32,000 nt of DNA from an uncultured bacterium (GTDB lineage: Bacteria > GCA-001730085), in assembly GCA_964565945.1 (NCBI GenBank), contig CAZMGY010000034.1, positions 14,856 through 46,855 of the forward strand. The letters run 5' to 3'. Every line of letters begins with the position of its first letter. Within the stretch, counting starts at the first letter, position 1. The translations under genes and the position numbers were made by a program. The notes under the pieces are model-generated. The model was not told the DNA's origin. It searched no databases and worked only from the letters and a program-made list of their open reading frames with translations. Positions 12,340 through 32,000 of the stretch are shown piece after piece.

Positions 12340-14064
<1,725 letters not shown>

Positions 14065-14347
14065 CTATGTCAATGTATGGTTAATAACGTTTTTATGAGG
14101 TTCTATTATACACTGGAAAGCTTACAATTGTTTGGAGAGAGAAGTTTTTCTTATTGATGGGCGGGTGTGAGACAATCTTACACCTTTAATCACCAAATAA
14201 AAAAATGAGTGTTATGGGAGGAATGCTGTTTGTGACTATGTGGGCAATCACAAAGTTTCCAGCCCATATGACACAGGCAAAAGGGCGAGTAGATAAGCTT
14301 TAGTGGCAGTTGTTTTCATTAGGGGCATTGCCCCGTAGCATATAGGC

Positions 14348-17300: not shown

Positions 17301-17776
17301 AGATAATCTGATCCACCTTTAATAAGGGGAATGGCTTGCTGTTTAAAGTTTTCGACCAATGTGTCGAAGGTGATACCACCAGTAACGGATAATGATTTAG
17401 TGGTCGGTCCCATAGATCCAGCGACAAAGCGAGGTTGTTCGGATGTCGAAAAGCGGTCGCAGGCCTGACGCGCAAGTTGGGCGGCTTGAAAGTTAATCTC
17501 GTAGTAGTGGTCTTGCAACTGATATTCTTTGAGAACAAGTGGAGTAGCGCCAAAGGTATTGGTTTCAATAATGCTGGCTCGAGCCCTTAAATAGCTTTCA
17601 TGGACAGTTGTGATGGTTTCGGGTTTAGTGATAACCAAGTATTCATTGCAGCCGTCGTATTCGGCACCTCCGAAATCGTCTGGTGTTAAATTCATATCTT
17701 GTAGGGAAGTGCCCATGGCGCCGTCGATGACTAAAATTTTACTATTAAGTTGTTCATAAATTATATGTTTATCCAA
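14348..17776 (-). CDS. metH: cobalamin-dependent methionine synthase MetH
   Basis: Hcy-binding domain (ILVIDGAMGT.., GGCCGTTPEHI), a pterin-binding domain, the B12-binding DxHxxG motif (GDVHDIGKN) and a C-terminal AdoMet-activation domain. Start trimmed to in-frame TTG 17774-17776 (LDKHIIYEQLNSKILVIDG), which parallels the E. coli N-terminus. No ATG lies between there and the conserved core. The track ORF runs to 18208 through the yggS gene on the other strand. Confidence 0.85.
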   Translation of the reverse strand: MDKHIIYEQLNSKILVIDGAMGTSLQDMNLTPDDFGGAEYDGCNEYLVITKPETITTVHESYLRARASIIETNTFGATPLVLKEYQLQDHYYEINFQAAQLARQACDRFSTSEQPRFVAGSMGPTTKSLSVTGGITFDTLVENFKQQAIPLIKGGSDYLLLETALDTLNLKAAYVGILQAFDECGQELPIAISGTIETMGTMLAGQGVEALYASVEHMTPLYIGLNCATGPAFMKDHIRTLSEIACCPVAVVPNAGLPNENGEYLENPDMLAKVLEQFIAEGWINLLGGCCGTTPEHIAALANISHNKQPREPQKEHASRISGIESLVLEDEGRPYIVAERTNVIGSRLFKNMIIEEKFEDAAEIARKQVKAGAHIIDVCLSNPDRDETSDIIAFLSIATKLVKIPFMIDSQVPEVIEEAFKLTQGKCILNSINLEDGEKSFEELVPVIKKYGASVVVGCIRGEMAVTAENKLDVAIESHKLLTEKYGLHEENIIFDPLVFPCGTGDKNYFGSGKETIEGVRLIKKRFPRCKTTLGISNVSFGLPPAGREALNTVFVYHCTQAGLDTAIVNSEKMLRYATLSDEEKKLCDDLLWYKQTDGNDPISNFVAYYRDKAVSEKPKVDRSKLSIEDKLEINIVQGTKEYLIENLEEACQKYPNPLAIINGPLMAAMAIVGKMFNDNELIVAEVLQSAEAMKASVNYLEQFMDAVETNVKGTLLLATVKGDVHDIGKNLVEIILGNNGYKVVNLGIKCPSAVLIEAAKKHNPDLIGLSGLLVKSAHQMVISAKDMKEAGINAPILVGGAALSENFTITKITPEYEGLVIYCRDAMNGLDISNHIVDSELFTTWKPQFLNRCEQIKTKIKTKTTVVSKKEKFILDHSHKLPKTPDFKRHVVSYSPEEVWPYLNNNMLYGKNLGLKGSIKRLLEKGDDKALKLKATVDQIKQKILDENLFKPKGLYQFFKVKPEGNSILVLDPNTEQERERFDFPRQQGGEDLCLSDFVHPDRTDTICAFVTTAGCDVGAIAREYLDAGEYVLSHTFFALAMETAESLAEVLHRNIRQVWGIPDSPELSIPNILQAKYQGIRVSFGYPACPNLDDQNILWLLLEPNKYLGVELTEDCMMEPEASVSALVFHHPKTKYFSI

Positions 17777-17878
17777 ATATTTGTCATTCTCACTAGATTG
17801 GGGTTTATAAAGCTCGTGATCATGTCGTAAGGTGATGCTTAGTGTGAAAAAGACATTATAACATGATAAAATGGTGGG

Positions 17879-18532
17879 ATGAAAGTATCTTGCGAACAAT
17901 TTCAGCAAAATAGACACAGGATTCAAGCTCATATCTCTGATTTTAATGGAGATATGGTGGTGGTGACCAAGTATTTTAGTGCCGAAGAGATGGATTTTCT
18001 TGCAGAGACAGATGTTGTTGATGTGGGAGAAAATCGGGTTCAGGCGCTTAAGGATAAACATGCTTATTGGGGTGATCGCTTTCGCTGGCATATGATAGGT
18101 CCATTGCAGACCAATAAAGTTAAACTGGTCGTTCAAATTTGTTCGATGATTCATTCGGTGGATCGTCTTAAACTTGCTTATGCTATTGATGCCGAAGCGA
18201 AAAAACAAGGCGCGCGTATGCCTAGTTGTTTGCAGGTAAATGTGCGTGGAGAGGAACGTAAACAGGGCTTTCGTCCTGAGGAGCTAAAATCTGTGTATAA
18301 TGAATTAAAGACATGCGAAGGTCTGGATATTCAGGGGCTTATGACAATGGCACCCTTGGTTGACGATCTGGAAGAGACGCGATCCTGCTTTAGGCATTTG
18401 CGTCGATTGGCAGATGACTTGAAGTTAAAACATTGTTCGATGGGGATGAGTCAAGATTTTCACGTAGCTGTTGAGGAAAGGGCGACGATCATTCGCTTGG
18501 GACGAGTGCTTTATAAGGAGTCTTTAGGATAA
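17879..18532 (+). CDS. yggS: YggS-family pyridoxal-phosphate homeostasis protein
   Basis: 217 aa. VVVTKYFSAEEM (PLP lysine context), DVGENRVQ, WHMIGPLQTNKV and the C-terminal SMGMS..D motifs of the YggS/PROSC family. Confidence 0.85.
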   Translation: MKVSCEQFQQNRHRIQAHISDFNGDMVVVTKYFSAEEMDFLAETDVVDVGENRVQALKDKHAYWGDRFRWHMIGPLQTNKVKLVVQICSMIHSVDRLKLAYAIDAEAKKQGARMPSCLQVNVRGEERKQGFRPEELKSVYNELKTCEGLDIQGLMTMAPLVDDLEETRSCFRHLRRLADDLKLKHCSMGMSQDFHVAVEERATIIRLGRVLYKESLG

Positions 18533-19335
18533 TGAATGCAAAAGTTGGTTTTACAGGTGCTGGTAATATGGCCGAAGCGATTATTCGTGGGGTCTTAGCT
18601 GCCAACATTTTAGACGTGGCTCATGTGGTTGTGAGTGATAAGTCGCAAAAGCGCTTAGCTCATATGCAAGATCATTACAGCATTAGGCATCTTTCTAATG
18701 AAGAGTTATTGGCTGAGGTGGACATTGTTGTTATTGCTGTTAAACCACAGGTTTTCGAAAGTATTCTTCCTATCTTGCAAAGCTCTTTTCGCTCAGACGT
18801 GTGTTACGTGTCGATTATGGCTGGTGTGACTATGACAAAACTGAGTGACATTGGTGTTGGTGCTAAAATTGTTCGCGTCATGCCTAACATGCCCGCTTTG
18901 ATAGGATTAGGAATGAGTGTTTTGTCGTGCTCGGATAATGTGGACACCAAGGTGCGCACACGGGTCAAAAATATATTTCAAGCGGTTGGCAAAACTTTGT
19001 GGGTCAATGAGTCTCAAATGGATGTTGTGACTGCTGTATCGGGAAGCGGACCAGCTTATGTGTTTCGTTTGGCCGAGGCGATGATTCAAGCGGCGGTGGG
19101 CAATGGCTTGAACGAAAGTGGGGCAAATGTGTTGGTGAAACAAACATTGAAGGGAGCTGCTGAGTTGATGATGCAGTCAACGGATACGCCAGCCGAATTG
19201 TGTCATAAAGTGAGTTCTCCAGGCGGAACTACATTGGCTGGCTTAGACGTTCTTGAGCAGGCTGATTTAAACCAAATTATGAATAACGTGGTGGTGGCTG
19301 CCAAAAAACGATCCGAAGAGTTAGGAAAGGAATAG
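18532..19335 (+). CDS. proC: pyrroline-5-carboxylate reductase
   Basis: 267 aa. N-terminal GFTGAGNMAEAI Rossmann motif, AVKPQ, VRVMPN, SGSGPAY, and SPGGTT near the C-terminus. Its ATG overlaps the yggS stop (TAATG). Confidence 0.9.
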   Translation: MNAKVGFTGAGNMAEAIIRGVLAANILDVAHVVVSDKSQKRLAHMQDHYSIRHLSNEELLAEVDIVVIAVKPQVFESILPILQSSFRSDVCYVSIMAGVTMTKLSDIGVGAKIVRVMPNMPALIGLGMSVLSCSDNVDTKVRTRVKNIFQAVGKTLWVNESQMDVVTAVSGSGPAYVFRLAEAMIQAAVGNGLNESGANVLVKQTLKGAAELMMQSTDTPAELCHKVSSPGGTTLAGLDVLEQADLNQIMNNVVVAAKKRSEELGKE

Positions 19336-19337
19336 CT

Positions 19338-19637
19338 ATGTTTGTGTTGGGGTATTTGTTTTTAGCTTTAGCCAAGTTGATTGGTATGGTGTTAAGTATT
19401 ATTTATTTTTTATTGGTGATTCGGATTATTATGTCTTGGGTTAATCCCGACCCGTATAACGATATTGTGCGGATGATTTATAAATTGACCGATCCCATTT
19501 TGAATCCCATTCGACGTATGTTGCCAATGCAAATGGGGATGATGGATTTTTCACCGATTGTGGCTTTTTTGGGCATCTATTTCTTGAATCAATTTTTGGT
19601 TAATATCCTTATGACGATGGGGCAACGGATGTTCTAA
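19338..19637 (+). CDS. yggT: YggT-family small membrane protein
   Basis: 99 aa, two hydrophobic spans, and the motif NPDPYNDIVRMIYKLTDPILNPIRR typical of YggT/Ycf19. Conserved neighbour of yggS and proC. Confidence 0.85.
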   Translation: MFVLGYLFLALAKLIGMVLSIIYFLLVIRIIMSWVNPDPYNDIVRMIYKLTDPILNPIRRMLPMQMGMMDFSPIVAFLGIYFLNQFLVNILMTMGQRMF

Positions 19638-20521
19638 TGCAAAAGCAATTTTTTGGATCAACAGATCTTTGGACAACGCCGTTGTGTTTTGGGGCTTGGC
19701 AGATTGGGGGTTTCCCCTTCTATAAGGATTGCGAGCGTGATCATGCCATAGCTTTAGTGCATGCTGTTCTCGATTTAGGTGTTAATTTTATTGATACGGC
19801 ACCCGTGTATGGGTTTGGCTTATCTGAGGAAATCTTGGGTGAAGCTTTGCAGGGCCGTCGTCACGAGCTTGTCCTTTCGAGTAAATGTGGTTTACAGTGG
19901 GACAAGGAAAGCCTTAGTGCGATTCATAAATGTGCCACGAGAGAGGCTATTATGCGAGATGTGGAGCAGTCGTTGCAACGACTGCAGACTGATTACATTG
20001 ATCTGTATCTTTTACATTGGCTCGATGTGAACACACCTCTTGAAGAAAGTATTTTGGCATTGCAAGAATTGAAGGATCAAGGTGTTGTGAAGCATATAGG
20101 TGTTTCGAATTTTTCTTTGGAGCAAATGCAAGAAGCTGTTACGTTTGGAGATGTAGAGGCCTTGCAATCGCGTTTGAGTCGTTTGCGTCCCGAAATCACA
20201 CCCGAAATGAGAATATTTTGTCTGGAGAGGGGTATCGGTATTCAAGCCTATTCTCCTTTAGAGAGAGGGCTTTTGACGGGGCAAACTTGGCAAAACCTGA
20301 AAGATAAAGATGAAGCGGCGATTCATTGGGCTTTGAAAAATGCGCCCAAAGGGTATGAAACAAAGATTGAAACGTGGGCTAAAGAAGCTGATGCGCAGGG
20401 TCTGAGTTTAACCCAAGCATCATTAAAATGGGTGTGTGACTTGGAGGGAGTGAGTTGTGCGATTGTGGGGAGTACGAACAAAGATCATATCGCAGAATGT
20501 TTGCAATCCTTCTCTGTGTGA
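19637..20521 (+). CDS. aldo/keto reductase family oxidoreductase
   Basis: 294 aa. GAWQIGG, NFIDTAPVYG.G.SEEILGEAL, IDLYLLHW and GVSNFS are AKR signatures. Its ATG overlaps the yggT stop (TAATG). Confidence 0.85.
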   Translation: MQKQFFGSTDLWTTPLCFGAWQIGGFPFYKDCERDHAIALVHAVLDLGVNFIDTAPVYGFGLSEEILGEALQGRRHELVLSSKCGLQWDKESLSAIHKCATREAIMRDVEQSLQRLQTDYIDLYLLHWLDVNTPLEESILALQELKDQGVVKHIGVSNFSLEQMQEAVTFGDVEALQSRLSRLRPEITPEMRIFCLERGIGIQAYSPLERGLLTGQTWQNLKDKDEAAIHWALKNAPKGYETKIETWAKEADAQGLSLTQASLKWVCDLEGVSCAIVGSTNKDHIAECLQSFSV

Positions 20522-20738
20522 AGGGCAATATCGTTTAACTGTAGAGCCTTTTAGCAAAGGCTGATGTTCGATTTATACCTTGGTCTTTGGATCTTTATGG
20601 ATTCGAGGGAATTTTACCGATTCAAGAGGCTTTGGTGTTTTAGCTGTGCTGCAAAGTTGTGCCCAACTATCGTGCAGTGATTTCTATCCGAAGTTTTCCT
20701 CTATGATGTTATAATAACGCTTTTCTTAAAAGGAGGAA

Positions 20739-21599
20739 ATGAATCATAAGGTGAGTGTTATGAGACAAATATTTATGTTTCCGGGGCAGGGCTCCCAGTC
20801 TAAAGGTATGGGGTTCGATCTTTTTGAGCAATTTTCTCAAGAAACGCAAGAGGCTAGCGATATTTTGGGCTATTGCATCAAAACTTTGTGCTTGGATGAT
20901 CCCAACGAAGAACTCAATCGTACGCAATTTACCCAGCCAGCCTTGTATATGGTGAATGCTTTGTCGATGATGAAACTAGCCGAAGACGGTGTTGTCCCCG
21001 ATATGGTTTTGGGTCACAGTTTGGGAGAGTATAATGCTTTACTGGCGGCTGGTGTGTTTGATTTTGAAACTGGTCTTAAACTTGTTCAAAAGCGTGGAGC
21101 TTTAATGGCTCAAGCTTCGGAGGGTGGCATGGCGGCGGTGATAGGCTTAACCCGTGAGCAAGTAGCTGAAGTTTTGTCCGACAACGCCTTAGATAGTATT
21201 GATTTGGCTAATCATAATGCCCACTTACAGGTGGTTCTTTCGGGCATGGCAGCCGATATTCAAGCTGCGATTCCCGTGTTTGAACAAGCTGGTGCCAAGC
21301 GTGTAATTCCTTTGGCTGTCAGTGGAGCGTTTCATTCACGCTATATGAAACATGCTCAAGAGGAGTTTTTAATTTTTTTGGATAGGGTTGATTTTAAAGA
21401 CCCATCTTTGCCTGTTATTTCAAACGTGACCGCTAAGCCTTACGAACTTAGTTCGATGAAGGAGAATTTAGCACAGCAATTGCTACAGCTGGTGCGTTGG
21501 GTTGAGAGCATGATCTATGTGTTGGAGCACGGTGACGTGGAATGTCGAGAAGTTGGCCCTGGTAAAGTGCTAGCTGGATTATTAAAGCGCCTAAAATAA
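20739..21599 (+). CDS. fabD: malonyl-CoA:ACP transacylase
   Basis: FMFPGQGSQSKGMG, the active-site GHSLGEYNALLAAG, and the AFHSRYM region. The start is uncertain: AGGAGG at 20731-20736 is only 2 nt from ATG 20739. In-frame ATG 20760 (MRQIFMFPGQGSQ) aligns best with E. coli FabD. Confidence 0.88.
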   Translation: MNHKVSVMRQIFMFPGQGSQSKGMGFDLFEQFSQETQEASDILGYCIKTLCLDDPNEELNRTQFTQPALYMVNALSMMKLAEDGVVPDMVLGHSLGEYNALLAAGVFDFETGLKLVQKRGALMAQASEGGMAAVIGLTREQVAEVLSDNALDSIDLANHNAHLQVVLSGMAADIQAAIPVFEQAGAKRVIPLAVSGAFHSRYMKHAQEEFLIFLDRVDFKDPSLPVISNVTAKPYELSSMKENLAQQLLQLVRWVESMIYVLEHGDVECREVGPGKVLAGLLKRLK

Positions 21600-21808
21600 T
21601 AAAACAAGGACTGCCTCGACTTATTCCTCACAGAACCCGTAAAAACAAATTCTACACTCAAGTCAATACACTGCTTGATTGGCATCAGATAGACAAACAA
21701 CATTTAATGGACTGTCTATCAAGAAGAGCTGACGCGAAGGGCTTATTAGCAAGATTTAGCCTATGAGTTATTGGGTGCAGAGTTCCGCATAGGCTTATTG
21801 GCTGGGTG

Positions 21809-21817
21809 TGCTACAAT
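21809..21817 (+). promoter_or_regulatory. possible extended -10 element (TGcTACAAT) 7 nt upstream of the polA ATG
   Basis: The sequence tgctacaat ends at 21817 and the polA ATG is at 21825. No Shine-Dalgarno is visible in between, although most other genes here have clear AGGAG-type sites. Confidence 0.3.
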
Positions 21818-21824
21818 AGTTGCC

Positions 21825-24392
21825 ATGACAAAGTCGAACGACAAAACTCTTTATTTGATTGATGGTAATGCCTATATGTATCGCAGTTTTTATGCGATTC
21901 GAGAGCTATCGACAGCGCAAGGTCAGCCGACCAATGCGCTGTTTGGCTTTATTAAAATGATCCTTAAACTTAAGCGTGAGCAAAATCCTTCGCACTTAGC
22001 GGTGGCCTTTGATGTGAAAGGTCCCACCAAACGCCATAAACAGTTTAAGGCCTACAAGGCTCAGCGCAAGCCGATGCCCGAAGATCTCGTGCTACAAATG
22101 GGACAAATTCGCGAAATCTTGCAGTCTTTTAAGATTTCTATTTTTGAAGGACAGGGCTATGAAGCGGATGACTTTTTAGCGACCTTAGCTAAGAATGGTC
22201 AAAACAAAGGCTTTGATGTGACGATTGTGACTGGCGATAAAGATATATTGCAATTGGTGAACGACCATGTGCGTGTTTTGAGCATTCACAAAGATAATTA
22301 TGTCTACGATACTGCCAACGTGATTGAAAAATATGGAATTGAACCCAAGCATATTGTTGATTTTTTGGGTTTAGCTGGCGATAGCGCCGACAATATTCCT
22401 GGGGTTCCTGGTATTGGTGTTAAAACAGCCACCCGTTTGATCCAACAGTTTGGATCGGTGGAGGATATTATTGCCTCGGTCGATAAAATTAAATCACCCA
22501 GTCAGCAAAAGAAAATGAAAGAGTATGCTGAGCAGGCTTTGATGAGTAAAGCCTTGGCTGTCCTTGAAGATAATATTGAGGGCTGTGACGATATTGATGC
22601 TCTTCAAGTGGTTGATCCCGATCATTCCACCTTGCATCGGATATTTCAAGAGTGGGAGTTCTTTTCTTTTATTCGCGAAATGGGCTTGCAAGACTATGCC
22701 GACAGCGAAAGTGTGCGAGCTGTTTTGCCCGAAGTTCAGGTGGAAGATGTGCCCGATTGGAAAGCGATTTTGCCTTTGTTAAAAGATAAGAAAGTTGCTT
22801 ATTTCTGGCAGTGCGAAGGCTTGATTGTTGTAAAGCTTCAGGGAGAGGGCAAAGGATATCTGTGTGCATGGACCCAAGACGAGGATTTGTGTGCCTTGTT
22901 ACATAGTGATATTGTTTGGGTTGGTTTTGATATGAAGCCTATACTCAAACAAGTGGGCTGTTTCGATCGCAAAGGTGATATTATCGATCTTAAATTGGCG
23001 GCTTACATGAATGCGCCAGGCAAAAACCAGTATCGCATCGAAGAATTAAGCGAAGAGTATGTTCAGCAAGCCTGGAGTGATGGCGAAGATGCGAGTGCTT
23101 GGGCGCATAATTTAGCGGTAATGGAAGCGTTGCATCTGTATTTGGATGAGCAACTGCGCACAAAAAAGTTAGACAAATTATTGGATTCTTTGGAAACTCC
23201 TTTGCTAAGTTTGTTGGCTAAAATGGAGGCGGTTGGGGTTAAAGTCGATGCAGGTTTTTTGGGAGAAATGTCGCAAAAGATGCAGATACGCTTGGATCAG
23301 TTGACCATCGACATTTATACGGAGGCAGGGGGAGAGTTTAATATTAACTCCCCTAAGCAGCTAGCCGAAGTTTTATTCGACGAACTAGGTTTTCCTCCGT
23401 CCAAAAAAACTAAAACGGGTTATTCGACCAGTGTCGAGGTGTTGGAAAAATTAGCCGAAGACTATGTGTTGCCAGCGCTCATTTTGGAGTATCGTCAATT
23501 CTATAAGTTGAAGAGCACCTATGTGGATGCTTTGCCAAAACTTATTGATGCTCAAACGGGACGGATTCACACCACCTTGCATCAGGAAGTAGCGGCCACA
23601 GGGCGTTTGAGTAGTTCTGATCCTAATTTGCAAAACATTCCGATTCGCACCGAAGAGGGGCGTGATATTCGTAAAGCTTTTGTGGCGGCCTCCGCGGATT
23701 GTGTTTTGGTAGCGGCCGATTATTCCCAAATTGAGCTACGTGTTTTGGCTCATCTAAGCCAAGATGAAACAATGATTTGTGCTTTTAATGAAGGCCAAGA
23801 CATTCATCGTCAAACGGCTTCGGATGTGATGGGGGTGCCTTTGGACAAAGTCACGGATAATATGAGGCGCATGGCCAAAGCCATTAATTTTGGTTTGATC
23901 TATGGCAAAACGCCATTTGGTTTGTCGAAAGACTTGGGGATTCCCATGTTTCAGGCTAAGGAATTTATCGAAACTTACTTTGCGCATTTTTCTAAAGTGA
24001 GAGATTTTATGGGTTCTACGATAAAACAGGCCAAAGAGGAGGGTTTTGTGCGAACGATGTATGGGCGAATCCGTTATTTGTCCGACATTAATGCCAAAAA
24101 CAAGATGACACGCGAGTTTGCCGAACGGATGGCGATTAACAGCCCTGTACAAGGAGCGGCTGCCGATATTATTAAGATGGCGATGCTTAAAGTTGATGAC
24201 TATTTGGTGCAAGAAAATTTCAAAAGTCAGCTAGTTTTGCAAATTCACGATGAGTTATTGCTCGAAGTTCCCAAAAATGAGCTCGATCAGGTCCAAAAAC
24301 AGGTCAAAGAGCTTATGGAGCAGACGGTTTCACTCGATGTACCTTTAACGGTCAATATCAGTTCAGGCCAGAACTGGGCGGAGGCACACTAA
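21825..24392 (+). CDS. polA: DNA polymerase I
   Basis: 855 aa from ATG 21825 (MTKSNDKTLYLIDGNAYMYRSFYA, a 5' nuclease N-terminus). Pol A motifs DYSQIELRVLAH, RRMAKAINFGLIYG and QIHDELLLE. The track start at 21771 is a TTG extension. Confidence 0.93.
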   Translation: MTKSNDKTLYLIDGNAYMYRSFYAIRELSTAQGQPTNALFGFIKMILKLKREQNPSHLAVAFDVKGPTKRHKQFKAYKAQRKPMPEDLVLQMGQIREILQSFKISIFEGQGYEADDFLATLAKNGQNKGFDVTIVTGDKDILQLVNDHVRVLSIHKDNYVYDTANVIEKYGIEPKHIVDFLGLAGDSADNIPGVPGIGVKTATRLIQQFGSVEDIIASVDKIKSPSQQKKMKEYAEQALMSKALAVLEDNIEGCDDIDALQVVDPDHSTLHRIFQEWEFFSFIREMGLQDYADSESVRAVLPEVQVEDVPDWKAILPLLKDKKVAYFWQCEGLIVVKLQGEGKGYLCAWTQDEDLCALLHSDIVWVGFDMKPILKQVGCFDRKGDIIDLKLAAYMNAPGKNQYRIEELSEEYVQQAWSDGEDASAWAHNLAVMEALHLYLDEQLRTKKLDKLLDSLETPLLSLLAKMEAVGVKVDAGFLGEMSQKMQIRLDQLTIDIYTEAGGEFNINSPKQLAEVLFDELGFPPSKKTKTGYSTSVEVLEKLAEDYVLPALILEYRQFYKLKSTYVDALPKLIDAQTGRIHTTLHQEVAATGRLSSSDPNLQNIPIRTEEGRDIRKAFVAASADCVLVAADYSQIELRVLAHLSQDETMICAFNEGQDIHRQTASDVMGVPLDKVTDNMRRMAKAINFGLIYGKTPFGLSKDLGIPMFQAKEFIETYFAHFSKVRDFMGSTIKQAKEEGFVRTMYGRIRYLSDINAKNKMTREFAERMAINSPVQGAAADIIKMAMLKVDDYLVQENFKSQLVLQIHDELLLEVPKNELDQVQKQVKELMEQTVSLDVPLTVNISSGQNWAEAH

Positions 24393-24525
24393 TTGTTATC
24401 TTTAAAAAGATCAATGTGCGGCAAAGTCCTTATCGGGTGGAAGTTGAGGGAAGCTCTTGTACACTTATCGTTCCGTAGTATAATGCGATATTCATGTATT
24501 CATAGGAATCCTTTTGGGAATTTAG

Positions 24526-24553
24526 TTGACACCTGCGTTCATAGACTTATAAT
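24526..24553 (+). promoter_or_regulatory. near-consensus sigma70-type promoter upstream of gap
   Basis: TTGACA (24526-24531), a 16-nt spacer, then TATAAT (24548-24553), about 140 nt upstream of the gap ATG. A weaker TTGTAC-N15-TATAAT pair lies at 24457-24483. Confidence 0.55.
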
Positions 24554-24682
24554 AACAAGTTTGAAGTTGTAAACGGTTTTATCGAATAGGCTTTAATGTT
24601 AAGTTTCGTATCTGTATGATGAATTGAACCTGAGTTAAACAAGGGATTTTTAAGCAAAAAAAATAAATAATTTCTTTATTAA

Positions 24683-25699
<1,017 letters not shown>

Positions 25700-25709
25700 T
25701 CTTTTATAA

Positions 25710-25751
25710 GGATTCTCTCTTTACGTGTGCTGTAGAGGGGAGTCCTTTTTT
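25710..25751 (+). terminator. probable intrinsic terminator or attenuator between gap and pgk
   Basis: GGAUUCUCU (25710-) pairs with AGGGGAGUCC (-25745), about 9 bp including G-U pairs. It is followed by TTTTTT at 25746-25751. Confidence 0.5.
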
Positions 25752-25802
25752 ATTGCTCCACAGGATGACGGATCGCGGAATCCAGACAAAAAGGAGAAAA
25801 CA

Positions 25803-26990
25803 ATGAACAAACTATCCCTCAAAGATTTAGATTTACAAGGCAAAAAAGTTCTTATGCGTGTGGACTTTAATGTGCCTTTGGATGATGCGCAAAACATCAC
25901 CGATGATAAGCGTATTGTGGCGACGCTTCCTTCGATCAAATATGTTTTGGAACACGGGGCCTCCCTGATTCTTATGAGCCATTTAGGTCGCCCTAAAGGA
26001 GAGGTTGTTGAAAGCATGCGCCTTAAGCCTGTTCAAGAACATTTGGCTAAGTTGTTGGGTCAAGATGTTGTGATGGTTCCTGACTGTGTTGGATCTGAAG
26101 TGGAAACTTTGGCTGAAAATTTGCAAACGGGACAGGTTTTGTTGTTGGAGAATTTACGTTTTTATAAGGCCGAAACCGACAATGAGGAGGTTTTTGCAAA
26201 GCAATTGGCTTCTTTGGCCGATGTGTATGTGAATGATGCTTTTGGAACAGTGCACCGCGCCCATGCGTCGACGGAAGGCGTAACGCATTTTATCGATCAT
26301 TGTGCCGCGGGTTTTCTTATGCAAAAAGAGTTAGAGTATTTTACAGTTGCTCTTTCGAACCCCGAACGTCCGTTTGTGGCGATTTTGGGTGGGGCCAAAG
26401 TTTCGGACAAAATTTTGGTGATCGAAAACTTGTTGGACAAAGTGGATATCTTGATCATTGGAGGAGGAATGGCCTATACCTTCTTTTTGGCTCAAGGCGT
26501 GGCGGTTGGAAATTCGATTGTCGAAAAAGATAAAGTGGATTTGGCGCAATCGATTATGGATCAAGCTAAAGCCAAAGGTGTGAATTTACTGTTTCCTTTG
26601 GATCATGTGATTGCCGATGATTTTTCGGCTGTTGCCAATATTGAAATCACCGATAAAGTTGGTGTGAAAGACAACTGGGAATCGTTGGATGTGGGACCAA
26701 AATCAGTGGCGATTTTTTCTAAAGCTGTGGCCCAAGCGAAAACGGTGATTTGGAATGGTCCTGTTGGTGTGTTTGAATTCGAGCCTTTTGCCAGTGGAAC
26801 CAAAGGTTTGGCCGAAGCCGTGGCTCAAAGTGATGCGATAAGCATTATTTGTGGTGGTGATACCGCTGCCGCGGTGGCTAAGTTTGGCTTAGAAGGCAAA
26901 ATGTCTCACGTGTCTACGGGTGGTGGCGCTTCACTCGAATTTATGGAAGGCAAAGAGCTTTCTGGTGTGGTGGCGTTGTCGGATAAATAA
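25803..26990 (+). CDS. pgk: phosphoglycerate kinase
   Basis: 395 aa from ATG 25803 (GGAG upstream). KKVLMRVDFNVPL, ILMSHLGRPKG, NLRFYKAE, and GGGASLEF near the C-terminus. The track start at 25725 is a GTG extension. Confidence 0.95.
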   Translation: MNKLSLKDLDLQGKKVLMRVDFNVPLDDAQNITDDKRIVATLPSIKYVLEHGASLILMSHLGRPKGEVVESMRLKPVQEHLAKLLGQDVVMVPDCVGSEVETLAENLQTGQVLLLENLRFYKAETDNEEVFAKQLASLADVYVNDAFGTVHRAHASTEGVTHFIDHCAAGFLMQKELEYFTVALSNPERPFVAILGGAKVSDKILVIENLLDKVDILIIGGGMAYTFFLAQGVAVGNSIVEKDKVDLAQSIMDQAKAKGVNLLFPLDHVIADDFSAVANIEITDKVGVKDNWESLDVGPKSVAIFSKAVAQAKTVIWNGPVGVFEFEPFASGTKGLAEAVAQSDAISIICGGDTAAAVAKFGLEGKMSHVSTGGGASLEFMEGKELSGVVALSDK

Positions 26991-27095
26991 AAGTCTATGT
27001 CATTTCTGCGGAGGTGGGAATCTAAATTAGAGAGGTACCTGTGAATCTCGCGGTCAAGTCGCGGGATGACGATGCAAGAATAAGAGGAGAACATA

Positions 27096-27845
27096 ATGAG
27101 ACGTAGAATTATTGCTGGAAACTGGAAGCTTAATAAAACCAATGCTGAAGCTGTTGAGCTTGTGAAGGAATTAGCGGCTCAGGTGAGTGATGTAAGCGGT
27201 GTGGATATGGTGGTTTGTCCAACAGCGATTGCTCTTTCAGATGTGGCTCAAAAACTTGAAGGGTCTGTGATTGGTGTGGGGGCTCAGAATATGTGGTGTG
27301 AAGACAGTGGAGCTTTCACGGGTGAAATTGCGGCGCCCATGATTCAAGCGATTGGAGCTCAGTATGTGATTTTAGGTCACTCTGAACGTCGTCAGTATTT
27401 CGGAGAAGACAATGCGGTGATCAATAAAAAAGTTCATAAAGCGATTAGCACTGGTTTGACACCGATTGTCTGTGTTGGCGAAACTTTGGCAGAGCGCGAA
27501 GGTGGCATTATGGAAACTGTGGTTAAAGATCATATTTTGGGATCTTTGGAAGGTGTTTCAGCTGCCGATATGACGAAAGTTGTTTTGGCCTATGAACCCG
27601 TATGGGCGATTGGGACAGGGAAAACCGCTACTCCTGAGGAAGCGCAAGAGGTTCATGCCTTCATTCGTAGTTTGTTGGTCGAGGCTTATGGCCAAGACGT
27701 GGCGGATCAGGTGCGTATTCAGTATGGCGGAAGTGTGAAACCTGGCAATGCAGCCGAACTTTTAGGCCAAGTCGACATTGATGGAGCCTTGGTTGGTGGC
27801 GCTAGCCTTAAGGCCGAAGATTTTGTGGCAATCATTAAGGCTTAA
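27096..27845 (+). CDS. tpiA: triosephosphate isomerase
   Basis: 249 aa. IAGNWKLN, ILGHSERR, AYEPVWAIGTG and LVGGASL motifs. GAGGAG lies upstream. Confidence 0.95.
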   Translation: MRRRIIAGNWKLNKTNAEAVELVKELAAQVSDVSGVDMVVCPTAIALSDVAQKLEGSVIGVGAQNMWCEDSGAFTGEIAAPMIQAIGAQYVILGHSERRQYFGEDNAVINKKVHKAISTGLTPIVCVGETLAEREGGIMETVVKDHILGSLEGVSAADMTKVVLAYEPVWAIGTGKTATPEEAQEVHAFIRSLLVEAYGQDVADQVRIQYGGSVKPGNAAELLGQVDIDGALVGGASLKAEDFVAIIKA

Positions 27846-27881
27846 AAATGATATATTACATTTATGATTAGAGCCTTAGCC

Positions 27882-28440
27882 TGACCTTCTGCCTCAATTT
27901 GGCTATATTTGATTCATGTAGTCATTTGGGCTAATATAGTCCAAATGAGAATGCAAATGTAGGCCGTTATAAAACATCACTATGTAATTCAAAATATCCT
28001 GTTGAGCTCCACTATTAGTCTGATAATGCTTCCACTGTACTCGTACCCGTTTTTTCTTTAGCGCTTGCGAAAGAAGTTCTCCGTGGACAGCGTTGTCCTG
28101 GTAATTGCCCTTACGGCTACATGCTACCAACAAAACCATGGGCGGCACAAGCGTAATCTGTTGTAAGTCTTGCTGCTATACTGAGAGCCACGGTCTGAAT
28201 GTACAATTAAGCCTGATGTTGGAGGACGCTCTTCTACGTCCATCCGAAATGCCTTTGTGAGAAGCCGAGTTGTCATACGCGAATCCCTGCTCCAGCCAAC
28301 GACTCGACGAAAAAAAAGGTCTATCAATATGGTCCAAATACAGCCAACCTTCCTGTGTCCAAATATAGGTTATATTAGAAACATAGGCATGATTTTGTCT
28401 GGGGACTTCAAATTGACGTTTTAGGACATTTTCAAAGGTA
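27882..28440 (-). mobile_element. 5'-truncated, decayed IS3-family insertion sequence remnant (right end only)
   Basis: Three consecutive transposase fragments lie in three different frames. A TGACC...-type terminus at 27882 sits just beyond the transposase stop. No OrfA, left end or second inverted repeat is present. The upstream boundary is approximate. Confidence 0.7.
27903..28430 (-). pseudogene. IS3-family OrfB (DDE/rve integrase-like transposase) pseudogene
   Basis: Fragment 28335-28430, hand-translated: NVLKRQFEVPRQNHAYVSNITYIWTQEGWLYL (family pattern ..W.TDITYI.T.EGW.YL, with the catalytic D replaced by N). Fragment 28124-28327: IDLFFRRVVGWS...HSDRGSQYSS. Fragment 27903-28148: SRKGNYQDNAV...FYNGLHLHSHLDYISPNDY. 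At least two frameshifts, and the N-terminal part is missing. Confidence 0.8.
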
Positions 28441-28654
28441 GAAAAACTTATGGTTACTTTAAACCCTACACTATACGGTATAGTAATATTAAATTTCTTA
28501 TGTGCAATAGTATTTCTATATGTTGTTTTATTTAATTAAAGTAGTTATAAATAATATATTTTGATTATTGTTACATTATGATAACATATATTTCTTGTAA
28601 AGAAAGAAGCAGGAAACTTAAGAAGACAACCCTTAAGATAGGAACCATTAAGGA

Positions 28655-28705
28655 TGAAATATTTAATTACTATTATTCAAACAAATCTCTTGGTTATTAT
28701 TATGA
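28655..28705 (+). other. 16-codon upstream ORF (MKYLITIIQQISWLLL*) ending in an ATGA overlap with the first ATG of the giant ORF
   Basis: ATG 28655 to TGA 28703-28705; the giant-ORF ATG is at 28702-28704. It could be a leader peptide, or the displaced true N-terminus (signal-peptide-like) separated by a 1-nt indel. Confidence 0.4.
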
Positions 28706-31700
28706 TGATGAATCTTTGGGGCTTAAGTGTACCTAGCCAACTTACTATGTTGCCAGGAGTGGCTAATACGGCGCAGATCTTATCGGCAAAGATGAATTTG
28801 ATTTCTGTTGAGGGGATATTAGGAGATCTTACCCAAATATTTCAAGACCATTGGCACTGGTTGATTGCAATCAAACATGAAGATTTTATTCCAGAAGAAG
28901 CCCATTTCGAAAAGAGGGACAAGGCACAAGTTCTTTTTAAAGCTCTTAAAACCAAAGCCTTAGACGAAGAGAATGTTGCCTTGTATACGGAAGTGGTTCA
29001 ATTTGAAAAATTTTGGAGCGAATTTGTTTTTGTTTTTTTGCCCAACTATATGTGGAATGTTTATATTGGTAAGGGTTTTTCTAAGAAATTTCCAGCTTTT
29101 TGGGAAAAATACTTTGAAAAGCATTGGCCTGAACAAAAGTATGACGAAAGCTTTTACAAAGAGTGGACAGAATGTCTGAGCAATCAAGTTGGTTTTGTTT
29201 GGAGTACAGAGCAGTGGAACCATACGAATGAGCATCAAAATTGGCAAGTGCTTTTTGCGCGTTATGAGGAGGCGCATGATCAACAGGTTTTGGGGCAACG
29301 TTTTGAATTATATGTTCAGCATTGGAAAGTTTGGCTAAGTGATAAAAATTCAGTTTTGGAAAATCTTGATGAGGACGCTATGGTGAAATATAGAAAAGCT
29401 TTGAATGCGCACCAAGCTTTGAAAAAATCATTAGTTTTGCCTCTTGCACCAGTATCTCAGCCTGTGGATGTGGCTGTGATTTCTAGAGGGGGTGGTGCTT
29501 TTGGGACTGTTTCCGAAAGTGCCGACGCGGACTTAAGGAAGAAATTAGATGATTTCTTGAAGGCAAAAAACACACAGCAAGAGGGGCAAAAAGAAGGAGT
29601 CGCTTTTCAATTATTGAGGGGTCTTTTGAAAGAGTGGAGCCAGGTGACAGCTTTTTTTCAAAATCATGTGACCGATTGGGTTAATGAACCTGTGGGGATT
29701 CACAACGATGTTGAATGGCGCGCCAAAGTGGCGCAAAAACTACTGCTGATTTTGGCGGATGAGCAAAATTTTACTAATGTGGAAAATCGTTCCGATAAGT
29801 CACAAGCTTTGATAAAAGCTATGTTAGGTTGGAGCGAAAATGCTCAAGGAGACGACGCTTTATGGCGAAGAGCTTCTGAAAGATTTCAGAATATTTTAGC
29901 TCATGTTCCCTTAAATAGTCACGATGTTCAAAGGAAATGGCCGGCCGTATGGGGTGAGCTTTGGAGTGGGTTACAGGGCTATGATGAACAAATAAATCGC
30001 TTGGTCCAAAGTTTTAAATCTTTTTTGAAAGACTACATTTTTCATATGTCTCAGGCCGAAGGTCTAGATTACGATATGGAGCAAATAATTGAAGAGTCTT
30101 TGCTGGAGCAAATGCGTCAAGGTTCCGAAGCTATTAAAAAAATAGCTCAGCAGATGAAAGGAGAATTGAATGAAAACTTGAATAATCGTGGTCAAGAGTG
30201 GTTGCAATTTCAGGGCTTTCTTGACCGATTGTTGCAACAGTTGATTGTGTTGGCAACTCTATTGGGGGGAGAGTTATCCCCGGAAATTTTACCTTTCTGG
30301 ACAAAAACCTTGGTAAACATTGAGCCCAGCAAGCAAGTGCCTATTTATGATCAAGCTGTTTTTGAGCAGTGGACGACGGAATGGAAGGAGTTGTGGAGTA
30401 TTATTGTGAGCGAAAAATGGGTTTCAAATAGGTATTTTCTTATTGATGTTATCTCCGCGTTACGGAAAGTCACACAAAAGTATATGGTTTTTGAAGGTCG
30501 TGAGGTGTTTCGGGGTGCTGATGAGCACATGGCTCGTTTAATGAAAGACTTTAATGGCTCTCTTCAAACATGGGTTTCTCAAAGAGCTAAGAATAATGTT
30601 TCTGATTCTACGCTGGTCACTTTAGCTGAGCAAGTTGAGACTATGCGTGGGATAGCTCAGCAAATGCGAAATCAGGGCAAGTCTGTTATTGCCAATAAAG
30701 GCGAAGAATGGATGAGGCACTATGGTTTTTTGCAGCGCTTGATGCAAAATATAGGAGAGATGGGAGATCTCTTAAGTGCGATTAATATCTGCAAGGGGCC
30801 TCCTAATAGAGAATCTCTCCTTATGGCGGGAAAATTTATTTATCTGATCAATAAGGTTTCCCCAGCGGATAGTTTAACAATTGTTGTGAAGGATCAAGAT
30901 GTTTACATTGCTTGGACAGAGTTATGGAGTCAGGTTTGGGATATCTTGTTAAGTAGCGATCTATGGAACGGAGAAGCGCCAGAATTTTTTATATCAATGA
31001 GAGATACTCTTAATAGCAAGCTGGTATTTGAGGAGGTGCAATCAATGGAGTTATTGTCTCAAATGGCTACTGAAACGGGAGGACGACACTCTTCTCCTGA
31101 AGGATCCCTTTCTCCTGAAGATCGAGGTTTCGTATTGATGCCAGCTCTCCCTCAAACAAAAATCTATTCAGAAGGGACAGTTGTTTGGGAGGAGACCCTG
31201 AAGAACTGGGATATAACTGACTTCGTTGGTCATGTTCGGGTTAATCATAAGCAAAGTTCGTTGGTTCAAAGTATTCCAGCTAATACTTATAAACAAACTA
31301 TAGATACGATTCTAGTGCATCCTAGTGCCTTTCAATTGCCAGGAGCTTTGATGCATTTTTTGATGCGCAATGAGATGCATCATCTTATGATCGCTGGCGA
31401 TACGGAGCTCCAAGAGTTTTATGCTCAAGAACCGCCGTTTATTTTAGGAACGGATAACTTGCTTTATACCATTGCCACGACACCGCGAGAAGTGTGGGCA
31501 GAGGTTTTGAAAGCGATGAAAGATTACGCTGATAAACTTGAGCAAGCAGGGGTGGAAAATGTGAATAGGTACCGTATTTTGCTAACCGCTTTGGACGCTA
31601 TGACATCGCCTAAACTTTATGAATCTTTGTTGAAAACCGAAGGAAAAGAGATTAACTATTGGATCCTACAGCAGAGTGATTTATTAGATAAATTCGATGA

Positions 31701-32000
31701 TTGGTTTAAGGTTTCATATGGAACACTGAGAGGGGGTATGCGTGACAAAAATGCATTTAGAGAGGCGCATCCTGCTCAAGTGGAGGTTGCTTCCGAAAGA
31801 GACGATGATGCCTTAAGGAAGAGATTAAATGATTTCTTGACGGCAGGGGCAGGAGTTACACCACAACAGGGGCAAAGGGAAGGAGGCGTTTTTCAATTAT
31901 TGAGGAGCCTTTTGAAAGACTGGGATCAGGTGACAGCTTTGTTTCAAAATCATGTGACCGATTGGACTAATGAAGATGTGAGAACTCACAAGGATGTTGA
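28702..32000 (+). CDS. 5' part (at least 1,099 codons) of a giant Trp-rich, internally repetitive protein of unknown function; continues beyond the window
   Basis: Hand translation of every line from 28681 to 32000 in the frame aligned to the line starts gives no stop codon. The last in-frame stop is TAA at 28582-28584. The first in-frame ATG is 28702; TTG 28690 is the only earlier canonical start. The repeat copies differ by in-frame indels and many conservative changes, which is consistent with coding selection. It is missing from the ORF track, presumably because no stop lies in the window. Confidence 0.85.
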   Translation, partial: MMMNLWGLSVPSQLTMLPGVANTAQILSAKMNLISVEGILGDLTQIFQDHWHWLIAIKHEDFIPEEAHFEKRDKAQVLFKALKTKALDEENVALYTEVVQFEKFWSEFVFVFLPNYMWNVYIGKGFSKKFPAFWEKYFEKHWPEQKYDESFYKEWTECLSNQVGFVWSTEQWNHTNEHQNWQVLFARYEEAHDQQVLGQRFELYVQHWKVWLSDKNSVLENLDEDAMVKYRKALNAHQALKKSLVLPLAPVSQPVDVAVISRGGGAFGTVSESADADLRKKLDDFLKAKNTQQEGQKEGVAFQLLRGLLKEWSQVTAFFQNHVTDWVNEPVGIHNDVEWRAKVAQKLLLILADEQNFTNVENRSDKSQALIKAMLGWSENAQGDDALWRRASERFQNILAHVPLNSHDVQRKWPAVWGELWSGLQGYDEQINRLVQSFKSFLKDYIFHMSQAEGLDYDMEQIIEESLLEQMRQGSEAIKKIAQQMKGELNENLNNRGQEWLQFQGFLDRLLQQLIVLATLLGGELSPEILPFWTKTLVNIEPSKQVPIYDQAVFEQWTTEWKELWSIIVSEKWVSNRYFLIDVISALRKVTQKYMVFEGREVFRGADEHMARLMKDFNGSLQTWVSQRAKNNVSDSTLVTLAEQVETMRGIAQQMRNQGKSVIANKGEEWMRHYGFLQRLMQNIGEMGDLLSAINICKGPPNRESLLMAGKFIYLINKVSPADSLTIVVKDQDVYIAWTELWSQVWDILLSSDLWNGEAPEFFISMRDTLNSKLVFEEVQSMELLSQMATETGGRHSSPEGSLSPEDRGFVLMPALPQTKIYSEGTVVWEETLKNWDITDFVGHVRVNHKQSSLVQSIPANTYKQTIDTILVHPSAFQLPGALMHFLMRNEMHHLMIAGDTELQEFYAQEPPFILGTDNLLYTIATTPREVWAEVLKAMKDYADKLEQAGVENVNRYRILLTALDAMTSPKLYESLLKTEGKEINYWILQQSDLLDKFDDWFKVSYGTLRGGMRDKNAFREAHPAQVEVASERDDDALRKRLNDFLTAGAGVTPQQGQREGGVFQLLRSLLKDWDQVTALFQNHVTDWTNEDVRTHKDV
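29515..29716 (+). repeat. Start of long-period module, copy 1 (inside the giant ORF)
   Basis: ..DLRKKLDDFLKAKNTQQEGQKEGVAFQLLRGLLKEWSQVTAFFQNHVTDWVNEPVGIHNDVE. It contains a 24-nt stretch (29656-29679, tttcaaaatcatgtgaccgattgg) identical to 31942-31965. Confidence 0.85.
29950..30930 (+). repeat. Nested degenerate sub-repeats of about 144-177 codons inside module 1
   Basis: W-x-E-L-W-S occurs three times (WGELWS 29950-29967, WKELWS 30382-30399, WTELWS 30913-30930). IAQQM...EW(L/M)..GFL.RL(L/M)Q occurs twice, exactly 510 nt apart (30142 and 30652). Confidence 0.7.
31792..32000 (+). repeat. Start of long-period module, copy 2 (truncated by the window edge)
   Basis: ..ALRKRLNDFLTAGAGVTPQQGQREGGVFQLLRSLLKDWDQVTALFQNHVTDWTNEDVRTHKDV. 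Offset from copy 1 is 2,280 nt before and 2,286 nt after an in-frame 6-nt indel. About two-thirds of the aligned residues are identical (hand alignment). Confidence 0.85.

What the first reader, a model, noticed from the sequence alone, without database searches (positions are those of the whole stretch)
29515..32000. Very long-period (about 760-codon) in-frame repeat; the second module starts just before the window edge
Segment 29515-29716 recurs at 31792-32000, offset by 2,280 nt (760 codons). The offset becomes 2,286 nt after an in-frame 6-nt insertion. The 24-nt block tttcaaaatcatgtgaccgattgg is identical in both copies. By hand alignment 41 of about 63 aligned residues are identical, with many conservative swaps (K/R, E/D, D/N). 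The copies keep the reading frame, so this looks like duplication of a whole module of about 760 aa followed by divergence under coding constraint. If copy 2 is complete, the protein exceeds about 1,850 aa, and more copies may follow. The N-terminal 270 aa or so (28702-29514) do not resemble the module end, so they look like a distinct head domain.
Basis: seen in the sequence. Interest (0 to 1): 0.7.

Follow-up and report, generated by a model that had tools for sequence, protein, structure and literature searches.

The report
Duplicated module in fast-evolving orphan protein
The long-period repeat is real: an uncultured PVC-group bacterium carries a gene for a large protein with no detectable relatives, in which a roughly 740-residue block has been copied in tandem and the two copies have changed amino acids unusually fast while the reading frame stayed intact. 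What the protein does is not known.

Summary
Window 29508-29714 recurs at 31788-32000 at 83-85% nt and 62-64% aa identity, with an offset of 2280 nt that becomes 2286 nt.

Public Logan assemblies of the same organism supply the end of the gene. A 583-codon open frame ends 28 nt before ligA. It aligns colinearly with module-1 residues 444-1022 at 50% aa and 74% nt identity. In a relative, the gene order is tpi, three genes, then ligA, so both pieces lie in one locus. The Logan contig starts with 30 nt identical to module 1, which is k-1 of the assembler and marks a repeat branch node. About 90 codons remain unseen. With exactly two modules the protein is about 1,790 aa.

Each module is nested. 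It holds three sub-units of 145-180 aa, each ending in W-x3-W-x3-W, followed by a domain of about 195 aa.

"Coding constraint" holds only for the frame. There are 0 stops against about 17 expected, and every indel is a whole number of codons. But dN/dS is 1.03-1.7, against 0.11-0.19 for housekeeping controls.

I found no homologue in 1.84 billion representative proteins, Pfam, PDB or the metagenome collections. AlphaFold models were unusable.

Best reading: an exported, Trp-rich, helical surface or interaction protein that is diversifying. The module count and the function are inferred, not shown.

The parts
27903..28400 (-). Degraded IS3-type transposase (integrase core) remnant between tpi and the big gene. 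It has frameshifts and stops.
   Evidence: The three-frame translation shows the pieces. The joined pieces hit Pfam rve (2e-10) and rve_2 (3e-5). All Logan contigs that carry tpi end at window 28005, inside this remnant.
28654..32000 (+). Large ORF, open from ATG 28654 to the window edge (1115 codons). It comprises the head, module 1 and the start of module 2.
   Evidence: An AGGAA lies 10-14 nt upstream of ATG 28654, and neighbouring genes use AGGAG-type ribosome-binding sites.
28654..28737 (+). N-terminal hydrophobic leader, aa 1-28 (MKYLITIIQTNLLVIIMMMNLWGLSVPS). Putative export signal or membrane anchor.
   Evidence: This is the only stretch with Kyte-Doolittle 19-residue mean above 1.5. 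It resembles the N-termini of two large orphan proteins of the Bugula PVC MAG. No signal-peptide predictor was available, so this is an inference.
28654..29511 (+). Head region, aa 1-286. It is Trp-rich and is not a copy of the module.
   Evidence: Self-comparison gives only weak hits, E 0.005-0.2. The sub-repeat HMM gives marginal W-motif matches at aa 163-197 and 208-257.
29512..31791 (+). Module 1 plus inter-module linker, aa 287-1046 (760 aa, the duplication unit).
29512..29973 (+). Sub-unit A, aa 287-440. It contains the conserved FQNHVTDW block and ends in a W-x3-W-x3-W motif at aa 429-437.
29974..30504 (+). Sub-unit B, aa 441-617. W-x3-W-x3-W at aa 573-581.
   Evidence: Self-BLAST of 440-586 vs 619-767 gives E 2e-13. 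The HMM domain covers 437-617 with 6e-82.
30505..31053 (+). Sub-unit C, aa 618-800. W-x3-W-x3-W at aa 754-762.
31054..31143 (+). Gly/Ser/Pro-rich, indel-prone linker, aa 801-830.
   Evidence: The alignment with the tail has a 10-codon gap here. The AF2 model shows no secondary structure in this stretch.
31144..31725 (+). C-terminal domain of the module, aa 831-1024. It is the most conserved part between the copies.
   Evidence: 63% aa and 82% nt identity to P0001 / L087. This part has the lowest local omega, 0.72.
31726..31791 (+). 22-aa inter-module linker, aa 1025-1046. It is absent from the terminal copy.
   Evidence: The tail ends in YRA-stop, aligned to aa 1022-1024.
31792..32000 (+). Start of module 2, aa 1047-1115, in frame with module 1.
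29981..30010 (+). A 30-nt stretch identical to the first 30 nt of Logan contig L093, the tail copy. It is a shared (k-1)-mer that forms a branch node in the k=31 assembly graph.
   Evidence: It is the longest exact match between the tail and the window; the next longest is 23 nt.

Best explanation
The finding is the 5' part of one long gene that lies between tpi and ligA. The organism is an uncultured bacterium of the PVC superphylum. Its nearest named relative is a MAG from the bryozoan Bugula neritina, followed by Omnitrophota.

The gene encodes a lineage-restricted, Trp-rich (3.6% W), mostly alpha-helical protein with an N-terminal hydrophobic leader. The protein was built by nested tandem duplication in two steps.

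1. An old duplication made three sub-units of 145-180 aa. Each ends in a helix with Trp at i, i+4 and i+8. They are followed by a domain of about 195 aa. Together these form a 738-aa module.
2. A more recent unequal recombination duplicated the whole 760-aa unit (module plus 22-aa linker) in frame.

The second copy, or the last copy if there are more, ends the protein 28 nt upstream of ligA. With two modules the product is about 1,790 aa.

Since the duplication the copies have diverged by 26% in nucleotides. Nonsynonymous change has been as fast as or faster than synonymous change, yet no stop or frameshift has been tolerated. The protein is therefore kept but its surface is diversifying.

Inferred function, not shown: an exported surface or secreted binding scaffold that takes part in interaction with a host, prey or other cells, where diversification is favoured.
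For: Shown:
- Repeat and open frame.
- A second copy at the C-terminus. L093:3-1754 is 583 codons and aligns colinearly with aa 444-1022 at 50% identity, followed by a stop and then ligA.
- Same organism. Logan contigs are 99.97-100% identical to window 17096-28005.
- Same locus. Relative L096 has fabD-polA-gap-pgk-tpi, then three genes, then ligA-dsbH.
- L093 begins with 30 nt identical to module 1, which equals k-1 and is the signature of a repeat node.
- dS is similar for M1-start vs M2-start (0.23) and for M1 vs tail (0.24-0.30 in the well-aligned parts).
- Nested sub-repeats and the W ladder. Three motif occurrences were seen against 0.05 in shuffles.
- Omega of 1 or more by NG86, LWL85, YN00 and ML. 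GY94 likelihood-ratio test: omega 1.41, p=0.017. Controls gave 0.11-0.19.
- 0 stops against 16.9 expected, with a minimum of 4 in 5000 simulations. All indels are whole codons.
- All 4 SNPs among samples in the tail are nonsynonymous, against 1 SNP in 8.9 kb of flank.
- Orphan status.

Inferred:
- Export, from the leader.
- Helical fold, from the secondary structure of low-confidence AF2 models.
Against: - About 90 codons between window 32000 and the start of L093 were never seen. Continuity of the frame and the number of modules are therefore inferred.
- No accessible assembly spans tpi to ligA. In the protein collection the longest contigs carrying them differ, 46,855 vs 88,380 nt.
- The test for omega above 1 is only nominally significant. 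NG86 gives 1.03-1.09, which is indistinguishable from neutrality.
- Three of the four tail SNPs sit within 16 nt in one sample and may be a single event.
- No signal-peptide predictor, expression data or confident structure is available (pLDDT 35 and 41).
- Function rests on analogy only.
Confidence: 0.6

Rival explanations
1. The gene has three or more modules. The tail seen next to ligA would be module 3 or later, and the intermediate copies are collapsed or missing from all short-read assemblies.
For: No assembly spans the gene. Logan contigs break on both sides. The collection's longest contigs for tpi and ligA differ. No complete product of this gene is in the 15-billion-protein collection, which suggests that the source contig ends inside the gene. 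The assembly graph contains a loop through the shared 30-mer, and the number of passes through it cannot be read from contigs.
Against: dS of M1-start vs M2-start matches dS of M1 vs tail, as expected if the tail is the rest of module 2. The break points on the tail side differ among samples (L093 position 1, then 305, 839 and 1215), so most breaks are due to coverage or polymorphism rather than one fixed repeat boundary. Apart from the single 30-mer, module 1 and the tail share no exact match longer than 23 nt.
Confidence: 0.2
2. The ORF is a decaying or functionless lineage-specific gene. On this view omega near 1 reflects relaxed selection after duplication, not diversifying selection.
For: NG86 omega is 1.03-1.09. 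The gene has no homologues. It sits next to an IS remnant in a locus that holds different genes in the relative. Its codon usage is the least typical among genes of the window, with RSCU r=0.55.
Against: There are 0 stops in 565 aligned codons against 16.9 expected, with a minimum of 4 in 5000 simulations. All 8 indel runs are whole codons. More than 1,700 codons are open in total. Methods that account for the transition/transversion ratio give omega 1.3-1.7, and the likelihood-ratio test rejects omega=1 at p=0.017.
Confidence: 0.12
3. The ligA-proximal tail is not a second module in the same genome. It would be the allele of module 1's remainder in another strain (a one-module haplotype), or the M1-to-M2 junction in the window would be a chimeric assembly join.
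For: L093 starts with 30 nt identical to module 1, so the graph also allows the path head, then M1(1-157), then tail. The region 28005-32000 of the window could not be checked against an independent assembly.
Against: The flanks are 99.9-100% identical among samples, whereas the tail differs from module 1 by 26% in nucleotides. That gap is implausible for alleles. The window shows module 1 running in frame into a diverged copy of its own start (83-85% identity), which a mis-join of identical reads would not produce.
Confidence: 0.05

Closest known systems
Large lineage-specific secreted or surface proteins of host-associated and predatory PVC bacteria. Examples are the no-Pfam 2,030-aa and 2,757-aa genes of 'PVC group bacterium (ex Bugula neritina AB1)', GCA_001730085.1, and the very long proteins of Omnitrophota (bioRxiv 10.1101/2023.11.21.568195).
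   Same: Same broad lineage: PolA is 52% identical to the Bugula MAG and 44-48% to Omnitrophota. All are large ORFs without any Pfam domain. The N-terminal hydrophobic leader is similar, with an N-x(1,2)-G-L motif.
   Different: There is no detectable sequence similarity beyond the leader. The Bugula 2,030-aa protein has no internal repeats. At about 1.8 kaa this protein is far below the 'giant gene' range.
Alpha-solenoid repeat proteins (TPR, Sel1, HEAT, ARM) used as binding scaffolds by bacterial effectors.
   Same: Predicted to be mostly alpha-helical, internally repeated, and built by tandem duplication.
   Different: The repeat period is 145-180 aa, nested inside a 760-aa period, rather than 30-50 aa. 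No Pfam repeat family is hit even at E=1. The PDB profile search gives only chance-level hits; a designed helical repeat protein scores E=0.15.
Tryptophan-rich helical antigens of Plasmodium (Pfam Tryptophan-Threonine-rich antigen family). This comparison comes from my own knowledge, not from a tool result.
   Same: Trp-rich, helical, exported proteins that evolve fast and are thought to bind host surfaces.
   Different: No sequence match was found in the Pfam scan. The organisms are unrelated. This is an analogy only.
IS3-family insertion sequences (for the flanking remnant only).
   Same: rve and rve_2 integrase-core domains.
   Different: Only the C-terminal half is present. It is broken by frameshifts and stops, so it is not an active element.

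Membership tests
Any curated protein family (Pfam-A, NCBIfam, PHROGs, PADLOC) | A profile-HMM match at or above the family's threshold. | tested here: not met
   The best Pfam hits are Translin (E 0.066) and CPL (E 0.13), both below cut-off. The best NCBIfam hit is E 0.052 against a cut-off of 167 bits. PHROGs gave 0 hits. PADLOC gave only E above 0.03. Scanning the sub-repeats individually gave nothing below E 0.008.
Short-period alpha-solenoid repeats (TPR/Sel1/HEAT/ARM) | Tandem units of 30-50 residues recognisable by family profiles. | tested here: not met
   The period is 145-180 aa. No repeat-family hit was found.
Chlamydial Pmp / autotransporter adhesins | Repeated GGA(I/L/V) and FxxN motifs and a C-terminal beta-barrel translocator. 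| tested here: not met
   There is no GGA[ILV] motif, and FxxN occurs at the chance level. No autotransporter Pfam hit was found. The C-terminus (the L093 tail) is predicted helical and ends 28 nt before ligA.
Giant genes of Omnitrophota and other PVC bacteria | A single ORF of tens of kilobases (products above about 10,000 aa). | tested here: not met
   1115 codons are seen in the window and 583 in the tail. The minimal model is about 1,790 aa. A larger size through extra modules is not excluded.
Sec-type exported protein | An N-terminal signal peptide with a positive n-region, a hydrophobic h-region, and a c-region with small residues at -3 and -1. | tested here: inconclusive
   The sequence starts with MK, has a hydrophobic stretch over aa 3-26, and has possible cleavage sites at GLS|V or VPS|Q. 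No predictor such as SignalP was available.
Gene under diversifying (positive) selection | dN/dS significantly above 1 while the ORF stays intact. | tested here: inconclusive
   Omega is 1.03-1.71 depending on method. The pooled likelihood-ratio test gives p=0.017, and M1-tail alone gives p=0.038. The ORF is intact. Only a pairwise comparison of paralogous modules was possible, so no site or branch model could be run.
IS3-family transposase (flanking element) | An intact OrfA/OrfB with an rve integrase core, plus terminal inverted repeats. | tested here: not met
   rve and rve_2 are detected, but across three frames with stops. Inverted repeats were not searched for.

The most novel reading that the evidence does not exclude
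A protein family with no detectable relatives among 1.84 billion representative proteins is evolving under net positive selection (omega above 1 averaged over more than 600 codons) after a recent whole-module duplication. Its architecture is a Trp-ladder (W-x3-W-x3-W) helical repeat. If so, it would be a newly arisen, arms-race-driven surface or effector protein of an undescribed, possibly host-associated PVC lineage, with a fold class not yet represented in structure databases.
Probability: 0.2. Interest if true: 0.6.

Novelty: new variant of a known kind. Interest (0 to 1): 0.42.

Why it matters
Internal duplication of a large module is a common way for proteins to grow, so the repeat itself is ordinary. 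Three features together are less ordinary:

- The protein has no homologue anywhere in very large public collections.
- dN/dS between the two copies is at or above 1 over hundreds of codons, while the frame is strictly kept.
- The gene sits in a variable slot between two conserved housekeeping genes in a poorly known PVC lineage whose nearest named relative comes from a bryozoan.

If the diversifying-selection reading holds, the gene marks the interface between this uncultured bacterium and its partner or prey. It would also be a clean case for studying how new repeat proteins are born and diversify.

On the practical side, the locus breaks every short-read assembly examined. Its true length is therefore likely to be misreported in MAGs.

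Tried and rejected
Homology searches that found nothing:
- The word-index search of 5.8 billion proteins, run with the ORF and with a module alignment. Neither run even returned P0001, so negatives from this tool are weak.
- The GTDB genome scan.
- Two JGI metagenome scans.
- Viral contigs.
- Plasmids by tblastn.
- PDB by sequence and by profile.
- PHROGs and PADLOC.

The exhaustive HMMER search returned one hit, P0001. That hit was the key lead to the tail.

Structure: AlphaFold2 on module 1 (pLDDT 35) and on the C-terminal domain (pLDDT 41). Both were too poor for a fold search, so none was run.

Bridging the unseen 270 nt:
- Exact-product look-ups of an IS-remnant ORF and of the 1115-aa fragment were not on record.

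Hypotheses considered and dropped:
- I first guessed Chlamydia from GC content and skew. Gene content (metH, thiC) and the PolA relatives ruled this out.
- The 606-aa orphan in the relative's tpi-ligA slot is not an ancestor of this gene; there is no similarity.
- The gene is not homologous to the Bugula MAG's giant genes.

Other:
- A search for the SRA run numbers in the literature found nothing useful, so the host or habitat is unknown.
- No named W-x3-W-x3-W motif exists in the literature library.
Full report

Yes. The repeat finder reports 29508-29565 vs 31788-31845 (83% identity, offset 2280) and 29572-29714 vs 31858-32000 (85%, offset 2286).

The frame that starts at ATG 28654 is open for 1115 codons to the window edge. 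ATG 28702 is in the same frame. An AGGAA lies 10-14 nt upstream of 28654, and neighbouring genes use AGGAG-type ribosome-binding sites.

In protein terms, aa 287-353 match aa 1047-1115 at 64% identity over 69 columns, E about 1e-24.

**2. What lies beyond the window?**

The window ends 69 residues into copy 2, so I looked for the rest in public data.

- Word-index protein searches, a GTDB genome scan and two JGI metagenome scans found nothing.
- An exhaustive HMMER scan of 1.84 billion representative proteins gave a single hit. P0001 is 171 aa and 63% identical to aa 854-1022.
- P0001 sits at the very start of Logan contigs L087 and L088, immediately upstream of ligA.
- Looking up ligA gave a longer contig, L093. 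There an ORF is open from the first base for 583 codons and stops 28 nt before ligA.
- This tail aligns colinearly with window residues 444-1022: 50% aa identity, 595 columns, 74% nt identity. It ends at the position of residue 1024, which is 22 residues before the module boundary.

So a nearly full second copy of the module exists, and it is the C-terminus of a protein.

**3. Is the tail part of the same gene?**

Three lines of evidence say it is the same locus in the same organism.

(a) Logan contigs from at least three run series carry the window's tpi region at 99.97-100% identity. The tail contigs come from the same run series.

(b) A relative with 59% PolA identity (JGI contig L096) has the gene order fabD-polA-gap-pgk-tpi, then neuB, a 606-aa protein and vanZ, then ligA-dsbH. 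The window's tpi and L093's ligA are therefore the two conserved flanks of one slot. The genes inside the slot differ, and the 606-aa protein is unrelated.

(c) L093's first 30 nt are identical to window 29981-30010 in module 1. This is the longest exact match between the two sequences; the next is 23 nt. It also equals k-1 for Logan's k=31 assembler. The contig therefore begins at a de Bruijn branch node shared by module 1 and the tail module. That is what a genome containing both copies would produce.

What is not seen is the equivalent of module-1 residues 354-443, about 90 codons. With exactly two modules the protein is 1115 + about 90 + 583, or about 1,790 aa.

dS of M1-start vs M2-start (0.23) matches dS of M1 vs tail in the well-aligned parts (0.24-0.30). 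This fits the tail being the rest of module 2 but does not prove it.

No assembly I could reach spans the gene:
- All tpi contigs stop at window 28005, inside an IS remnant.
- Tail contigs start at four different points.
- The longest contigs on record for tpi and ligA differ, 46,855 vs 88,380 nt.
- No complete product of the gene is in the 15-billion-protein collection.

The source contig therefore probably ends inside the gene. The graph contains a loop through the shared 30-mer, so contigs alone cannot give the copy number.

**4. Anatomy**

The head is aa 1-286. It starts with the only strongly hydrophobic stretch of the protein (aa 1-26). It is Trp-rich but is not a copy of the module; only marginal motif matches appear.

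Each module is itself repetitive.
- Residues 437-617 and 615-798 are clear paralogous sub-units, with about 30% identity and E 2e-13 by BLAST. The same two units are found in the tail.
- A shorter first unit, aa 287-440, ends with the same motif.
- All three units end in D-x-x-[VI]-[FY/Q]-x-x-W-x3-W-x3-W, at aa 429, 573 and 754. That is three occurrences against 0.05 in shuffles. The motif also occurs at tail positions 132 and 315.
- Trp at i, i+4 and i+8 would line one face of a helix. This is an inference.
- After the third unit come a Gly/Ser/Pro-rich, indel-prone linker and a domain of about 195 aa. That domain is the best conserved part between copies (63% aa identity).

Sub-units within a module are about 30% identical, whereas the same sub-unit in the two modules is 57% identical. 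The sub-unit duplication is therefore older than the module duplication.

**5. Mode of evolution**

The frame is indeed protected. With the observed 443 substitutions in 1695 aligned nt, random substitution creates 16.9 stops on average, with a minimum of 4 in 5000 trials. None is observed, and all eight indel runs are whole codons.

Amino-acid constraint is absent on average.

| Comparison | Method | dN/dS |
|---|---|---|
| M1 vs tail | NG86 | 1.07-1.09 |
| M1 vs tail | LWL85 / YN00 | 1.30 |
| M1 vs tail | ML | 1.35 |
| M1-start vs M2-start | four methods | 1.03-1.71 |
| Pooled, 638 codons | GY94 pairwise | 1.41 |

For the pooled GY94 fit, the likelihood-ratio statistic against omega=1 is 5.7, p=0.017.

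Identity by codon position is 0.705, 0.743 and 0.767, so the third position is the most conserved.

As a control, the same pipeline on tpi, gap and polA against the relative gives omega 0.11-0.19, with the third position least conserved.

Among Logan samples the tail carries four variable sites, all nonsynonymous. The 8.9 kb downstream carries one. Three of the four tail sites lie within 16 nt in one sample and may be a single event.

Together these results favour a retained but diversifying protein over a decaying one. The evidence for omega strictly above 1 is only nominal.

**6. What is it?**

No Pfam, NCBIfam, PHROGs, PADLOC or PDB relative was found. AlphaFold2 models were of low confidence (pLDDT 35 and 41) and show mostly helices. 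I ran no fold search on them.

The organism belongs to the PVC superphylum. PolA is 71% identical to an unnamed Logan contig, 59% to a JGI contig, 52% to 'PVC group bacterium (ex Bugula neritina AB1)' and 44-48% to Omnitrophota. TPI is 65% identical to an Omnitrophota MAG.

The Bugula MAG has two large no-Pfam genes (2,030 and 2,757 aa). Their N-termini are FFFTNAGLMHLQSLATKS and FFFMNIGLVNLDALATES, which resemble IIMMMNLWGLSVPSQLTM here. Among ORFs of at least 150 aa in five loci, a post-hoc pattern matched only these three proteins. This suggests a shared export leader, but the evidence is weak.

My best reading is an exported surface or secreted helical scaffold involved in cell-cell or host interaction, sitting in a variable slot next to an IS3-type remnant. 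The anatomy and the mode of evolution are shown. Export and function are inferred.

**7. Verdict**

- The repeat is real and reflects a whole-module tandem duplication nested on older sub-repeats.
- The product is probably about 1,790 aa with two modules. More modules cannot be excluded.
- The striking features are orphan status and omega at or above 1 with a strictly kept frame.
- It is a new sequence family of a familiar kind (a lineage-specific modular repeat protein), not a new kind of system.
- Interest is moderate.

Noticed in passing
window 27903-28400 (- strand): This is a remnant of an IS3-type transposase (rve + rve_2) broken by frameshifts. It lies between tpi and the big gene. Every Logan contig that carries tpi, from at least 10 runs in several projects, ends at exactly window 28005 inside it. 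The element or a part of it is therefore probably repeated in the genome.
   Followed up: partly
L096 13569-17289 vs window 27846-32000: In a relative (59% PolA identity) the tpi-ligA slot holds a neuB-like gene, a 606-aa glycosyltransferase-like orphan and vanZ instead of the big gene. The slot is a variable region that, in the relative, carries cell-surface-related genes.
   Followed up: partly
L097 1-8166 (- strand): The Bugula neritina PVC MAG has adjacent 2,030-aa and 2,757-aa genes without any Pfam hit. Their N-terminal leaders (hydrophobic run, N-x-G-L, then L-A-T) resemble the leader of the window's protein. There is no other similarity, and the 2,030-aa protein has no internal repeats.
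   Followed up: partly
window 14053-14347 (upstream of thiC, - strand): No TPP riboswitch was found upstream of thiC, nor any other Rfam family anywhere in the 32 kb, even at a permissive threshold.
   Followed up: partly
L093 874, 887, 889, 1434: The tail of the big gene is polymorphic among SRA runs: S/T, R/S, C/Y and F/L, all nonsynonymous. The tpi side is 99.97-100% identical across runs, and the 8.9 kb downstream of the gene has one SNP.
   Followed up: partly
whole window: GC skew is strongly positive (0.06-0.28) across the entire window, whatever the direction of the genes. This suggests that the + strand is the leading strand throughout and that replication-strand asymmetry is pronounced.
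   Followed up: no
window 21771-24392: PolA of this organism and of its closest relatives (846-873 aa) lacks the Pfam 3'-5' exonuclease domain hits (PF01612, PF22619) that the Omnitrophota homologues carry.
   Followed up: no
tool behaviour (vs 27): The word-index homology search never returned P0001, although the exhaustive HMMER search scored it at 2e-61. ORFs cut by contig ends also seem to be missing from the protein collections. Together these explain why the window's own ORF had no self-hit.
   Followed up: no
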